Origin: Escherichia phage BEU51
Length of the DNA: 48,949 nucleotides
Strand: one strand, 5' to 3'
Sequence record: OM632672.1
Positions 33,193 through 34,319 of this stretch are shown one piece after another (within the stretch, counting starts at the first letter, position 1; every line of letters starts with the position of its first letter). A program made the translations under genes and the position numbers. A model generated the notes under the pieces. It had not been told where the DNA came from. It worked only from the letters and a program-made list of their open reading frames with translations, and made no database searches.

Positions 33193-33267
33193 GATGGTGT
33201 AGCTCAGTAGTAGAGCAGTTGGCTGTTAACCAACTGGTCGATGGTTCGAATCCATCCACCATCGCCA
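33193..33267 (+). tRNA. tRNA-Asn (anticodon GTT)
   Basis: Folded by hand: acceptor GATGGTG/CACCATC, D-arm GCTC/GAGC, anticodon stem GTTGG/CCAAC with loop CTGTTAA, T-arm GATGG-TTCGAAT-CCATC, encoded CCA. Confidence 0.85.
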
Positions 33268-33272
33268 AATTT

Positions 33273-33362
33273 GGAAGGTTGTCAGAGAGGCCGATTGTAC
33301 CTGACTTGAAATCAGGAGGCGCAGAGATGCACCCGAAGGTTCGAATCCTTCACCTTCCACCA
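33273..33362 (+). tRNA. tRNA-Ser (anticodon TGA), long variable arm
   Basis: Acceptor GGAAGGT/ACCTTCC, anticodon stem CCTGA/TCAGG with loop CTTGAAA, 18-nt variable arm, T-arm GAAGG-TTCGAAT-CCTTC, encoded CCA. Confidence 0.8.
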
Positions 33363-33366
33363 AATT

Positions 33367-33442
33367 GCTGGTTTAGCTCAGTTGGTAGAGCAATTGCTTT
33401 GTAAGCAATGGGTCAATGGTTCAAGTCCATTAACCAGCACCA
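33367..33442 (+). tRNA. tRNA-Thr (anticodon TGT)
   Basis: Acceptor GCTGGTT/AACCAGC, D-arm GCTC/GAGC, anticodon stem ATTGC/GCAAT with loop TTTGTAA, T-arm AATGG-TTCAAGT-CCATT, encoded CCA. Confidence 0.85.
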
Positions 33443-33450
33443 ATACAGGT

Positions 33451-33530
33451 TATTAGTGAACACACTATGGAACCTCCCAGCTTCCTCCAGATGTACGGCA
33501 ATACATTAGCTGGTAGTGTGTTCACTGATA
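33451..33530 (+). repeat. long imperfect hairpin (17-bp outer stem plus inner stems)
   Basis: TATTAGTGAACACACTA pairs with TAGTGTGTTCACTGATA (one G-T pair); inner stem CCAGCT/AGCTGG; apical ATGTA-CGGCAA-TACAT; begins 8 nt after tRNA-Thr. Confidence 0.6.
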
Positions 33531-33609
33531 GGTTGTACTATCACAGTCCAGACAATATCTGCGTGACTTAAAAAACAGATGGAGCCAGGTGGAATCCCTG
33601 GCAACTAAT

Positions 33610-33675
33610 TCCGGTGTAGGTACTAGTGTCGTGCACGGCATGAGTGTTCTGGTTCGAGTCCAGACGCCGGAACCA
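33610..33675 (+). other. tRNA-like remnant (acceptor stem + T-arm + CCA, too short for a canonical tRNA)
   Basis: TCCGGTG pairs with CGCCGGA; T-arm TCTGG-TTCGAGT-CCAGA and CCA present, but only 29 nt lie between position 9 and the T-stem. Confidence 0.35.
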
Positions 33676-33678
33676 ATT

Positions 33679-33781
33679 CGTAAGAACTCTTATTTTGGTT
33701 ACCGCAAAAGAAGTGAAAAATGTTGTGGAAAACTACTTCCCAATTAGGTTCGAATCCTAAACCAGAGTAAGAGTTCTTTCG
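33679..33781 (+). other. 14-bp stem enclosing a 75-nt tRNA-like element
   Basis: CGTAAGAACTCTTA pairs with TAAGAGTTCTTTCG (one mismatch); interior 33693-33767 has acceptor-like TTTTGGT/ACCAGAG and a perfect T-arm TTAGG-TTCGAAT-CCTAA but no foldable D or anticodon arm and no CCA. Confidence 0.4.
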
Positions 33782-33794
33782 AATTGAAGATTTA

Positions 33795-33871
33795 CAGGAT
33801 ATAGCTCAGTTTGGTAGAGCGTCTGCTTTGGGAGCAGAATGTCGTAGGTTCGAATCCTGCTATCCTGACCA
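33795..33871 (+). tRNA. tRNA-Pro (anticodon TGG)
   Basis: Acceptor CAGGATA/TATCCTG, D-arm GCTC/GAGC, anticodon stem TCTGC/GCAGA with loop TTTGGGA, T-arm GTAGG-TTCGAAT-CCTGC, encoded CCA. Confidence 0.85.
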
Positions 33872-33873
33872 AA

Positions 33874-33957
33874 TTAGTGCTCTGGTATATTACTTTTAAC
33901 CCCTAGGTTATGCCACAGTAATACAACAGATTGGGTCATCTGAAACCAGAGCACTAA
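33874..33957 (+). repeat. long hairpin (13-bp perfect outer stem)
   Basis: TTAGTGCTCTGGT pairs with ACCAGAGCACTAA; interior has TATTAC/GTAATA and apical CAGAT-TGGGTC-ATCTG; begins 2 nt after tRNA-Pro. Confidence 0.6.
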
Positions 33958-34319
33958 CCTAATGTGTGGGATGTAACAGTTAAATCCAGTTGCCGGAAGT
34001 GCAATTCTAGATACGCTGCCAATGCGTGAACGGTAAGGCTGTACAGGACTCGGACTCCCATCCCACCTCCTTATTTGAACCAGGTATGAACGGCTTACTT
34101 AGTATTAACTGCATAGGGGTATGTTAGGGATACTTAGGTGGTAAGCAGTTGGTAAGAATCCAACATGGTTCATTCCCTATTAGCAGTAACATAGTCCTGA
34201 GTACGTGTGCTCTAAAGACAATATTGGCGAGACAGTCCAATAGCTGCTAAATTAAATTCGTCCATTCCTCTTGGATGTGTAGCGAGTGAAGGTAACACTT
34301 AAAAATCCATGACCCACAG

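What the first reader, a model, noticed from the sequence alone, without database searches (positions are those of the whole stretch)
33193..33960. tRNA cluster interleaved with long-stem hairpins and tRNA-like remnants
Four canonical tRNAs (Asn, Ser, Thr, Pro) are packed within 680 nt. tRNA-Thr is followed after 8 nt by a hairpin with a 17-bp outer stem (33451-33530). A CCA-terminated, T-arm-containing tRNA-like remnant (33610-33675) is followed after 3 nt by a 14-bp stem (33679-33781) enclosing a 75-nt tRNA-like core with a perfect GGTTCGAATCC T-arm. tRNA-Pro is followed after 2 nt by a 13-bp perfect stem hairpin (33874-33957). Two of the hairpins begin with TTAGTG and each has an apical 5-bp stem with a 6-nt loop. 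The regular alternation suggests co-transcribed structured RNAs or processing signals (for example RNase III or RNase P/Z-guided punctuation), or decayed tRNA genes kept as structural elements. Phage T4 is known to encode small stable RNAs in its tRNA region, which makes a comparable role plausible.
Basis: seen in the sequence. Interest (0 to 1): 0.65.

Follow-up and report, generated by a model that had tools for sequence, protein, structure and literature searches.

The report
Conserved structured-RNA array in phage N4
The "tRNA region" of coliphage N4 is a 1.2-kb non-coding unit in which four ordinary tRNAs sit among long-stem hairpins and tRNA-like RNAs that evolution has preserved, some of them more strictly than the tRNAs, and whose function is unknown.

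Summary
The window is coliphage N4 (about 99% identical). Four canonical tRNAs (Asn, Ser, Thr, Pro) sit in a 1.3-kb gene-free gap that ends in a strong plus-strand terminator.

The three long-stem hairpins are real. H1 (33444-33537) has 24 pairs and H2 (33674-33786) has 26, against a maximum of 19 in shuffles. H3 (33874-33957) has 13 perfect pairs.

H1 and H2 are not decay products. Both occur in all 21 Enquatrovirinae loci examined, from three genera. Their stem sequences differ but still pair: 90-93% of cells paired, 12 of 20 pairs changed on both sides, 0 of 500 shuffles as high. The enclosed cores are not conserved. H3 recurs in phage Pollock, again 2 nt after a tRNA CCA end.

The "tRNA-like remnant" (module B) is one of the most conserved pieces, 100% identical across genera.

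The gap also holds modules A, D, E and F. Canonical tRNA content varies by genus; the non-tRNA modules are more constant. Module A followed by a long stem also occurs in more than 120 unrelated phage contigs.

Best reading: a co-transcribed array of independent small structured RNAs. The roughly 20-26-bp stems probably act as double-stranded processing or stability elements. Function is untested. No Rfam family and no paper found describes these elements.

The parts
33193..33267 (+). tRNA-Asn (GTT), CCA encoded
   Evidence: ARAGORN; Rfam tRNA 75.2 bits
33273..33362 (+). tRNA-Ser (TGA), CCA encoded
   Evidence: 50.5 bits
33367..33442 (+). tRNA-Thr (TGT), CCA encoded
   Evidence: 75.2 bits
33444..33537 (+). 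H1: long-stem element, 24 pairs, enclosing a 46-nt non-conserved core. It belongs to the CUAUCAAUGAGUAC.../...GUACUCUUUGAUAG family.
   Evidence: Found in all 21 Enquatrovirinae loci. Covariation: 93.3% paired, 12 of 20 pairs changed on both sides, 0/500 shuffles. G.U:A.C = 38:6.
33545..33602 (+). Module A. Hairpin A1: UCCA 33547-50 / UGGA 33580-83 and UCUG 33558-61 / CAGA 33576-79, with an A-rich loop. Hairpin A2: GCCAGG 33584-89, loop UGGAAUC, CCUGGC 33597-602.
   Evidence: 92-100% identical across the three Enquatrovirinae genera. Also found alone in unrelated phages and prophages. The A2 stem keeps pairing through a matched indel. The A1 outer pair is U-A in N4-like phages and C-G in prophages.
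33610..33675 (+). Module B: tRNA-like RNA without a D-arm. Acceptor 33610-16 / 33665-71; 10-bp hairpin 33621-46 with an apical GUGCAC; T-arm 33648-64; ACCA 33672-75.
   Evidence: fold; alifold, where 2 hairpin pairs are compensatory and the rest invariant. 100% identical to PBM-3, L011 and L016. Present in cp20 with compensatory T-stem and hairpin changes. Not called by ARAGORN, and no Rfam tRNA match listed.
33674..33786 (+). H2: long-stem element, 26 pairs, built as 7 bp, a U.U mismatch, then 19 bp. It starts at the second C of B's CCA. In N4 the core carries a T-arm (33744-33760).
   Evidence: Found in all 21 Enquatrovirinae loci with at least 5 different stem sequences and unrelated cores. 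Covariation: 89.7% paired, 12 of 20 pairs changed on both sides, 0/500 shuffles for covariation score.
33795..33871 (+). tRNA-Pro (TGG). At this position only in Enquatrovirus.
   Evidence: alignment
33874..33957 (+). H3: 13-bp perfect stem closing a three-way junction, starting 2 nt after the tRNA-Pro CCA
   Evidence: Identical in all Enquatrovirus records. 91% homolog in Pollock, 2 nt after the tRNA-Leu CCA, with G-C to G.U changes. Weak similarity to the H1 family (z 2.8).
33966..34066 (+). Module D: closing stem GUGGGAUG / CAUCCCAC around a nearly invariant core of about 85 nt
   Evidence: 99% identical to PBM-3. 4 compensatory pairs, 3 of them in the closing stem.
34072..34176 (+). Module E: UAGGGGUAUGU motif plus the hairpin GUUGG-UAAGAAU-CCAAC
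   Evidence: the hairpin stem is GCCAG/CUGGC or GCUGG/CCAGC in other genera. 82% identical to Pollock. The motif is also in DS8.
34180..34256 (+). Module F: closing stem GCAG(U/C) / (G/A)CUGC with an inner hairpin UAUUGG / CCAAUA
   Evidence: found in nearly all loci. 4 compensatory pairs.
34318..34347 (+). Intrinsic terminator that closes the non-coding unit
   Evidence: 12 pairs plus a T-run. The equivalent terminator is conserved in the other genera.

Best explanation
Shown: window 33193-34347 is a single-strand-oriented, gene-free array of about a dozen independent structured RNA modules, closed by a strong terminator. The order is tRNA-Asn/Ser/Thr, H1, A, B, H2, tRNA-Pro, H3, D, E, F. The long stems H1 and H2, and on less evidence H3, are plus-strand RNA helices under selection for pairing. 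What they enclose is free to vary. The modules are shuffled as cassettes among Schitoviridae genera and some unrelated phages.

Inferred mechanism: the array is transcribed as one precursor and cut by host enzymes into small stable RNAs, as in the T4 tRNA/rnaC/rnaD cluster.
- tRNAs and the tRNA-like module B would provide RNase P sites at their 5' ends.
- They would also provide CCA ends followed by A/U-rich linkers for 3' trimming.
- Each helix of about 20-26 bp begins 0-3 nt after a CCA. These helices would act as double-stranded punctuation: RNase III substrates and/or exonuclease-proof clamps that separate neighbouring modules and fix their ends.

The released non-tRNA RNAs (A, B, D, E, F and the hairpins themselves) presumably have their own, still unknown, functions during infection.
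For: Identity and layout: the window is N4. There is no ORF of 60 aa or more in the gap apart from one that overlaps the tRNAs. All elements are on the plus strand and a strong plus-strand terminator sits at 34318-34347.

The helices are beyond chance.

H1 and H2 are present in 21 of 21 Enquatrovirinae loci. Covariation is strong for both: 12 of 20 pairs changed on both sides in each, 0/500 shuffles, and slid registers give only 27-53% pairing.

G.U far exceeds A.C in H1, 38:6. The Pollock changes in H3 are C to U opposite G. Both point to plus-strand RNA, not DNA.

The cores are non-homologous between lineages while the stems persist.

Junction geometry: H2 begins at the second C of a CCA in every lineage. 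H3 follows a CCA by 2 nt in both N4 (tRNA-Pro) and Pollock (tRNA-Leu). H1 follows a tRNA CCA by 1 nt in N4 and by about 5 nt (ACAUC) in Kaypoctavirus.

Stem lengths of 18-27 bp match what I recall as the size of E. coli RNase III substrates (own knowledge).

The modules are independent. Pollock has H3, E, H1 and the type-3 stem without A, B, D, F or H2. cp20 has B alone. pSb-1 has A fused to H2 without B.

Precedent: in T4, rnaD and rnaC are packed 2-6 nt after tRNA-Arg and after each other, and rnaC has a T-arm plus long hairpins. I recall that T4 species 1 RNA is an RNase III substrate (Paddock et al. 1976, from memory, not retrieved).
Against: There are no expression or end-mapping data. 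No N4 transcriptome was found. The promoter was not identified; the sigma-70 scan found none.

In unrelated phages the homologous long stem follows hairpin A2 directly, with no CCA and usually no tRNA nearby (7 of 83 loci). Punctuating tRNAs therefore cannot be the ancestral role of the stem.

The mostly conserved unpaired position 8 (11/18 and 14/16) suggests specific recognition by a partner, not a generic double-stranded cut site.

Modules B and D are nearly invariant, which a pure 'processing handle' would not require.

The arms used for the covariation counts were picked by maximising pairing at anchored positions, which inflates the percentage paired somewhat.
Confidence: 0.5

Rival explanations
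1. The long-stem elements are the business end of functional non-coding RNAs, not processing signals. The stem (7 bp, a mismatch, then at least 10 bp) would be a protein-binding or effector-binding platform that presents a hypervariable apex. It would act as a decoy, sponge or specificity module in phage-host or phage-phage conflict, for example anti-defence. The tRNAs would merely share the operon.
For: The unit of module A plus a long stem is found in more than 120 viral contigs and 10 Enterobacterales genomes, mostly temperate phages, and usually without tRNAs.

In at least one prophage, and similarly in phage DS8, it lies in a gene-free gap of about 850 nt inside a structural operon, on the opposite strand to the flanking genes. 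The prophage copy has a TTGACA-type promoter-like sequence upstream and a terminator downstream.

The unpaired position 8 is mostly conserved in both H1 and H2.

The apex is hypervariable even between close relatives.

The N4 locus lies two genes upstream of a protein with a Tad2-like Thoeris anti-defence domain.

Phage tRNA loci are now known as counter-defence loci (PMC13096335).
Against: No partner protein or target has been identified. GGA motifs are not enriched, so it is not a CsrA-type sponge. The Tad2 adjacency is a single contextual hint. This reading is compatible with processing rather than exclusive of it.
Confidence: 0.3
2. The hairpins and tRNA-like pieces are neutral wreckage of decayed tRNA genes in a fast-evolving tRNA array.
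For: Canonical tRNA content turns over between genera. Many fragments carry T-arms or CCA-like ends. The H2 core has a T-arm in some lineages and not in others.
Against: Compensatory evolution maintains the stems across three genera. Modules A, B and D are 94-100% identical between N4 and PBM-3, while the flanking genes match other N4-like phages at only about 75-83%. Perfect helices of 13-26 bp do not arise from tRNA decay.
Confidence: 0.04
3. The inverted repeats act at the DNA level: cruciforms or hairpins for replication, recombination or N4 vRNAP-type hairpin promoters.
For: N4 biology does use DNA hairpin promoters for its virion RNA polymerase (own knowledge). Perfect palindromes such as H3 work on either strand.
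Against: There is strong G.U over A.C asymmetry on the plus strand, 38:6 in H1. One-sided C to U changes opposite G in Pollock would be A.C mismatches on the other strand. As I recall, N4 vRNAP promoter hairpins have 5-7-bp stems with 3-nt loops (own knowledge), not 24-bp stems with 46-75-nt inserts. The elements sit in a co-oriented RNA gene array between terminators.
Confidence: 0.04
4. They are MITE- or REP-like mobile repeats with terminal inverted repeats that have inserted next to tRNA genes.
For: The same stem types appear at different positions in different genomes and in unrelated phages. Several paralogous copies occur per genome (H1 and H3 in N4; H1, H1b and H2 in Kaypoctavirus).
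Against: H1 and H3 have no copies in 5,426 E. coli genomes. Orthologous copies keep their stems but have unrelated cores, with base-by-base compensation, which indicates long vertical descent under RNA-level selection. No target-site duplications or transposase were seen. The only indel found between near-identical genomes is an unrelated tandem duplication.
Confidence: 0.05

Closest known systems
Phage T4 small stable RNAs, species 1 (rnaC) and species 2 (rnaD), in the T4 tRNA cluster
   Same: They are non-tRNA stable RNAs encoded on the same strand as a phage tRNA cluster and within a few nt of it. rnaC carries a perfect T-arm (GGGUUCGAAUCCC), a terminal stem and long irregular hairpins in place of normal tRNA arms. 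Their function is still unknown. I recall that rnaC is cut by RNase III (from memory).
   Different: There is no sequence similarity to any N4 module. N4 has many more modules. Its helices are longer and more regular, they enclose variable inserts, and they start at or inside a CCA end.
RNase III processing stems (rRNA operon 16S/23S flanking stems; T7 early-mRNA R sites)
   Same: They are double-stranded helices of about 20 bp or more within a polycistronic transcript that also carries tRNAs. They are conserved for pairing, not sequence, sometimes with an internal mismatch. They bracket the RNA to be released.
   Different: Cleavage here has not been demonstrated. The enclosed 'cargo' is not conserved, unlike 16S or 23S rRNA. 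The homologous stems in other phages are not associated with tRNAs.
Bacterial Y RNA-like RNAs (YrlA, Rfam RF02553)
   Same: A long terminal stem plus a tRNA-like module with a T-arm. They are also found in some phages.
   Different: The Rfam score is 17-19.5 bits against a gathering score of 69, and the hits span two neighbouring genes. In the YrlA model the T-arm precedes the D-arm. As I recall, the long stem of YrlA joins at the position equivalent to the anticodon stem. In H2 the long stem is an extension of the acceptor stem.
Large phage-associated ornate RNAs (GOLLD, ROOL), which often neighbour or embed tRNAs
   Same: They are phage or prophage-borne, are long non-coding stretches, and are associated with tRNAs.
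   Different: No Rfam match at E<=10. The modules here assort independently between genomes, which argues against one globally folded RNA.
tRNA-linked hairpin transcripts in eukaryotic viruses (murine gammaherpesvirus 68 tRNA-like/pre-miRNA units) and the mitochondrial tRNA punctuation model
   Same: A tRNA or tRNA-like element immediately followed by stem-loops, with tRNA-processing enzymes defining the ends (own knowledge).
   Different: A different domain of life and different enzymes. This is an analogy only.

Membership tests
Canonical tRNA (Rfam RF00005 / ARAGORN) | Full cloverleaf scoring above the gathering threshold, with a 7-nt anticodon loop | tested here: met
   Met for Asn, Ser, Thr and Pro only: 50.5-75.2 bits against a gathering score of 29, and ARAGORN anticodons GTT, TGA, TGT and TGG.
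Canonical tRNA, applied to module B (33610-33675) and the H2 core | D-arm, anticodon arm with a 7-nt loop, detection by tRNA models | tested here: not met
   ARAGORN calls neither in N4 or cp20. No RF00005 match is listed for either at E<=10. B has 7 nt in place of a D-arm and a 6-nt (N4) or 7-nt (AN24P2, cp20) GUGCAC(A) loop. It was annotated only as tRNA-Undet. B does keep the acceptor stem, T-arm and ACCA end.
T4 rnaC/rnaD-type phage small stable RNAs | Encoded within a phage tRNA cluster, on the same strand, a few nt from neighbouring tRNAs | tested here: met
   In N4 the gaps are 0-8 nt. In T4 the gaps are 2-6 nt.
T4 rnaC/rnaD-type phage small stable RNAs | Sequence homology to rnaC or rnaD | tested here: not met
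   blastn-short found only T-loop 13-mers and chance 12-mers.
T4 rnaC/rnaD-type phage small stable RNAs | Accumulates as a discrete stable RNA in infected cells | not testable with these tools
   No expression data were found.
RNase III processing stem | Largely regular dsRNA helix of about 20 bp or more in the transcript | tested here: met
   H1 has 24 pairs and H2 26 pairs in N4. Other lineages have 18-23. H3 has only 13 bp and would be too short on its own.
RNase III processing stem | Pairing conserved, not sequence | tested here: met
RNase III processing stem | Cleaved by RNase III in vivo or in vitro | not testable with these tools
   Needs comparison with an rnc mutant or an in vitro cleavage assay.
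YrlA / bacterial Y RNA (RF02553) | Score at or above the Rfam gathering threshold over the whole model | tested here: not met
   17.3 and 19.5 bits against 69. Only model positions 30-81 are matched, and the hits span a T-arm plus the next tRNA's D-arm.
YrlA / bacterial Y RNA (RF02553) | Encoded next to an Ro/Rsr (TROVE) gene | not tested
   Only the five flanking ORFs were scanned. They gave Phage_gp49_66 and Tad2-like hits and no TROVE domain.
tmRNA | tRNA-like domain plus a tag reading frame, detected by ARAGORN | tested here: not met
   No tmRNA in the window.
GOLLD / ROOL large phage RNAs | Match to the Rfam covariance model | tested here: not met
   No match at E<=10 in 32900-34900. No family other than tRNA was found in four related gaps at gathering threshold, and none in the prophage gap at E<=1.
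MITE / REP-type dispersed repeats | Many near-identical copies dispersed in host or phage genomes | tested here: not met
   H1 and H3 have no match in 5,426 E. coli genomes. H3 is found in only 17 phage records, one place each.

The most novel reading that the evidence does not exclude
N4's 'tRNA region' is one instance of an unclassified, widespread family of modular phage non-coding RNA loci in Enterobacterales phages. Its core unit has two small hairpins (module A) followed by a long stem (7 bp, a mismatch, then at least 10 bp) that presents a hypervariable apex. In this reading the unit is a dedicated effector scaffold, for example an RNA decoy or specificity module used in anti-defence or inter-phage competition. 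Module B, the invariant tRNA-like RNA without a D-arm, with an ACCA end and a self-complementary GUGCAC loop, would be a second functional non-decoding tRNA mimic, not a relic.
Probability: 0.25. Interest if true: 0.85.

Novelty: new variant of a known kind. Interest (0 to 1): 0.62.

Why it matters
N4 is a classical model phage, yet its reference records annotate nothing in this 1.3-kb stretch. Showing that the conserved, selected content of the "tRNA region" is a set of non-tRNA structured RNAs changes what should be looked for there. These RNAs are shared across Schitoviridae subfamilies, and in part with many temperate phages.

It also gives T4's species 1 and 2 RNAs, whose function has been unknown for about 50 years, a broader comparative context.

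It provides concrete, mutable targets for experiments: stems with known compensatory rules, a mostly conserved unpaired position, and an invariant palindromic loop.

It flags a frequent source of mis-annotation in phage genomes, where spurious small ORFs, pseudo-'RIIA/RIIB' genes and wrong-strand tRNAs have been placed over these RNAs.

If the RNAs turn out to be anti-defence or host-takeover factors, they would be a new class of phage RNA effectors.

Tried and rejected
1. Module D as a mimic of the 16S 3' end, or a minus-strand mini-ORF. N4 has CACCUCCUUA just after D. On the minus strand this reads as a perfect Shine-Dalgarno sequence plus an ATG. Neither is conserved in other genera, where the sequence is CAUCUCAAACC. 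Rejected.

2. CsrA-type sponge. GGA and ANGGA counts equal shuffle expectation. Rejected.

3. YrlA / Y RNA, tmRNA, GOLLD and ROOL. No credible matches.

4. H3 as the ortholog of 'module C' of other genera, as the MAFFT alignment suggested. Pairwise similarity is at chance, z = 0.2. Rejected.

5. The 127 extra bases in phage Jura as a mobile hairpin insertion. They are a tandem duplication of the upstream terminator region near 33008.

6. The search for related loci with the upstream 151-aa protein returned only N4 itself.

7. A gapless arm alignment for the wider family of 'A plus long stem' failed because of bulges: 59 of 105 sequences were skipped. I used the simpler tally instead.

8. The six-frame ORF-free-gap statistic around module A was uninformative because of spurious ORFs.

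9. The literature searches found no description of these elements and no N4 small-RNA data.

10. T4 rnaC and rnaD share no sequence with any N4-like locus.
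Full report
**Identity and setting.** The window is coliphage N4 or a near-identical Enquatrovirus: 100% identical to the BEU phages and 97.8-99% identical to EF056009. The 3,506-aa minus-strand ORF at 35264-45784 is the virion RNA polymerase. 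The finding lies in a gene-free gap, 33042-34372, between plus-strand genes. A strong plus-strand intrinsic terminator (34318-34347, 12 pairs plus a T-run) closes the gap just before the next gene. The N4 reference records annotate nothing here. Other records annotate three to five tRNAs.

**Check of the observation.** ARAGORN and Rfam both call tRNA-Asn 33193-33267, tRNA-Ser 33273-33362, tRNA-Thr 33367-33442 and tRNA-Pro 33795-33871. The three hairpins are real and larger than described:

| Element | Arms | Pairs |
|---|---|---|
| H1 | 33444-33467 / 33514-33537 | 24 |
| H2 | 33674-33700 / 33760-33786 | 26 |
| H3 | 33874-33886 / 33945-33957 | 13, perfect |

H2 is built as 7 bp, a U.U mismatch, then 19 bp. 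The fold z-scores are -5.9, -6.0 and -5.1. In 100 dinucleotide shuffles of the gap no stem exceeds 19 pairs, and in 60 shuffles no perfect run exceeds 11. The element at 33610-33675 (module B) has a 7-bp acceptor stem, a T-arm and an ACCA end. It has no D-arm and carries a 10-bp hairpin in place of the D and anticodon arms. ARAGORN does not call it, and no Rfam tRNA match is listed for it at E<=10. tRNAscan-SE labelled it 'Undet' in two GenBank records.

**Comparative anatomy.** I aligned N4 with Gamaleyavirus genomes (AN24P2, PBM-3, Bas96 and others) and Kaypoctavirus genomes (BaqKoxi, KP8 and others). The whole gap turns out to be a conserved modular unit, 1.2 kb in N4 and about 1.9 kb in the other genera. 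In N4 the order is:

tRNA-Asn/Ser/Thr | H1 | A (33545-33602) | B | H2 | tRNA-Pro | H3 | D (33966-34066) | E (about 34072-34176) | F (34180-34256) | terminator.

Modules A, B and D are 94-100% identical between N4 and PBM-3, and 91-100% across all loci that carry them. The flanking genes match other N4-like phages at only about 75-83%. Canonical tRNA content is the variable part:

- N4: Asn, Ser, Thr, Pro.
- Gamaleyavirus: Ile plus an odd tRNA, or none by ARAGORN.
- Kaypoctavirus: Asn, Pro, Ser, Gln and others.

**The long stems are selected RNA helices.**

- H2. In all 21 Enquatrovirinae loci a helix begins at the second C of a CCA end and ends ...GAAUUG. The CCA belongs to module B or to an extra tRNA-like copy. 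There are at least five different stem sequences and unrelated cores. A T-arm is present in the core in N4, AN24P2, Bas96 and L017, and absent in PBM-3, BaqKoxi and the KP8 type. On 16 distinct arm pairs, 89.7% of cells pair. Twelve of 20 pairs change on both sides. The covariation score is 0.451 against 0.202 in shuffles (0/500). Slid registers give 27-46% pairing.
- H1. It belongs to the family CUAUCAAUGAGUAC.../...GUACUCUUUGAUAG, which is present in all 21 loci. On 18 distinct arm pairs, 93.3% of cells pair. Twelve of 20 pairs change on both sides. The covariation score is 0.371 against 0.178 (0/500). Slid registers give 31-53% pairing.
- Strand. G.U outnumbers A.C by 38 to 6 in H1, so the plus-strand RNA is what folds.
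- Shared geometry. Both helices have a mostly unpaired position 8 (11/18 and 14/16), giving 7 bp, a 1x1 mismatch, then at least 10 bp.
- Caveat. The arms were located by maximising pairing at anchored positions. This inflates the percentage paired somewhat, but it cannot produce 17-20 of 20 pairs or the double substitutions.

**H3.** It is identical in all Enquatrovirus records. It shows no similarity to module C of other genera (z = 0.2) and weak similarity to one H1 variant (z = 2.8). Its only diverged homolog, at 91%, is in phage Pollock of a different subfamily, Humphriesvirinae. There it again starts 2 nt after a tRNA CCA, but after tRNA-Leu. GenBank places those tRNAs on the wrong strand. 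The changes in its stems are C to U opposite G, so pairing is kept as G.U on the plus strand only.

**Other modules.**

- B, D and F are almost invariant, and their few changes are compensatory (2, 4 and 4 pairs).
- B also exists in cp20 (Efbeekayvirus), between tRNA-Tyr and tRNA-Ser, without A or H2. Its T-stem and hairpin show compensatory changes, and its apical GUGCAC palindrome is invariant.
- Pollock's gap contains four tRNAs, H3, E (82%), a 'type-3' long stem and an H1-family element, but no A, B, D, F or H2.
- pSb-1 lacks B and has A fused directly to H2.

The modules therefore behave as independent cassettes, not as domains of one folded RNA.

**A wider family.** Module A has two parts. 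The first is an interrupted hairpin with an A-rich loop. The second is a 5-6-bp hairpin with a UGGAAKC loop. Module A occurs at 85-93% identity in unrelated phages: Deseoctovirus DS8, Kuravirus XT18 and temperate Klebsiella phages. It also occurs in 15 of 5,426 E. coli genomes.

In 81 of 105 unique sequences, A is directly followed by a stem of at least 12 pairs, typically ACACAAC.../...GUUGUGU. The inner sequences differ between families but still pair, and the apex is hypervariable. tRNAs lie within 800 nt in only 7 of 83 loci.

In an E. coli prophage the unit sits in a gene-free gap of about 860 nt between terminase and portal, on the opposite strand to those genes. A TTGACA-type promoter-like sequence lies upstream and a terminator downstream. 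In phage DS8 it sits in a similar 844-nt gap between tail genes, also on the opposite strand. None of these regions matches any Rfam family other than tRNA.

**Mechanism.** Shown: this is a plus-strand array of structured RNA modules, closed by a terminator and under purifying selection. The stems are kept for pairing, and they begin 0-3 nt after CCA ends.

Inferred: the array is made as one precursor and cut by host RNases into small stable RNAs, as in the T4 tRNA/rnaD/rnaC cluster. That cluster is packed just as tightly, and its rnaC has a T-arm plus long hairpins. tRNAs and module B would provide RNase P sites and CCA ends. The helices of about 20-26 bp would act as RNase III sites and/or exonuclease-proof clamps.

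The main rival is that the stem with its conserved mismatch and variable apex is itself an effector scaffold, a decoy or a specificity module. Three observations favour this rival: the tRNA-independent distribution of the A-plus-stem unit, the mostly conserved unpaired position, and the neighbouring gene with a Tad2-like anti-Thoeris domain at 34744-35229. The two readings are not mutually exclusive. Three other readings are disfavoured: neutral tRNA decay, DNA-level palindromes and MITE-like repeats.

**Comparison with known systems and novelty.** The closest known things are the T4 species 1 and 2 RNAs. They have the same genomic logic and a partly similar architecture, but no homology. RNase III processing stems share the geometry, but cleavage is untested here. 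YrlA, tmRNA, GOLLD and ROOL fail their tests. I found no paper describing these elements. I rate the finding as a new variant of a known kind, namely small structured RNAs associated with phage tRNA clusters. There is a real chance that the A-plus-stem unit and module B are new RNA families in their own right.

Noticed in passing
window 34744-35229 (+): The 161-aa protein two genes downstream of the RNA array (N4 gp49 region, 'DUF2829') matches the Pfam Tad2-like Thoeris anti-defence domain (E 9e-24). The RNA locus therefore sits next to a likely anti-defence gene.
   Followed up: partly
window 33545-33602; loci L007, L028-L031, L032-L156: Module A followed by a long stem is a widespread RNA module absent from Rfam. 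It is found in more than 120 IMG/VR contigs and in prophages of 10 Enterobacterales species. In an E. coli prophage it sits in a gene-free gap of about 860 nt inside the structural operon, on the opposite strand to the flanking genes, with a promoter-like sequence upstream and a terminator downstream. Phage DS8 has a similar 844-nt gap.
   Followed up: partly
window 33631-33636 (inside module B): The apical GUGCAC of B's hairpin is invariant in every homolog, including cp20, while the stem below it covaries. It is self-complementary. From memory, it is the same hexamer as the HIV-1 subtype A dimerisation-initiation loop. B might therefore form kissing dimers.
   Followed up: no
window 34063-34072, both strands: N4 has CACCUCCUUA, like the 3' end of 16S rRNA, right after module D. 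On the minus strand this reads TAAGGAGGTG plus an ATG that opens an ORF of about 33 codons. Neither feature is conserved in other genera.
   Followed up: yes
window about 33008 versus L006 (phage Jura): Jura carries a 127-nt tandem duplication of the end of the upstream gene and its terminator region. It is unrelated to the hairpins.
   Followed up: yes
L157 (Pollock), L021 (K60PH164C1), L004 (Bas96), L002/L003: Public annotation over these RNA loci is often wrong. Pollock's four tRNAs are on the wrong strand. K60PH164C1 has pseudo 'RIIA/RIIB' CDSs across the RNA region. Bas96 has about ten tiny hypothetical ORFs on both strands. The virion RNA polymerase is labelled 'DNA polymerase' in PBM-3 and BaqKoxi.
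   Followed up: partly
window 30000-36000: In the megablast, 224 phage records, including T4-like, Yersinia and Shigella phages, match some part of this 6-kb stretch at 95-99%. The matching part is not the first three tRNAs, which hit only 36 records. I did not identify it.
   Followed up: partly
window 33193-33267 and 33795-33871: tRNA-Asn is 96% identical to the tRNA-Asn of the 108-kb phage Cyrano. tRNA-Ser is 92-97% identical to that of Klebsiella N4-like phages. tRNA-Pro is 86% identical to T4 tRNA-Pro. This is consistent with exchange of tRNA cassettes between phage families.
   Followed up: no
window 34113-34135; L028 (DS8) gap positions 728-771: A UAGGGGUAUGU motif, repeated 2-3 times, is shared by N4 module E, Gamaleyavirus, Pollock and the unrelated phage DS8. 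In DS8 it lies in the apex of a long stem.
   Followed up: no
L013 2349-2432, L027 1394-1477, L157 1755-1835, L007 about 4066-4127: A third long-stem type, (C)ACAACAGGWAAGAGCAYUG.../...CAGUGCUCUUWCCGUUGU(G), is shared by some Gamaleyaviruses, Pollock, DS8, a Klebsiella phage and an E. coli prophage.
   Followed up: partly
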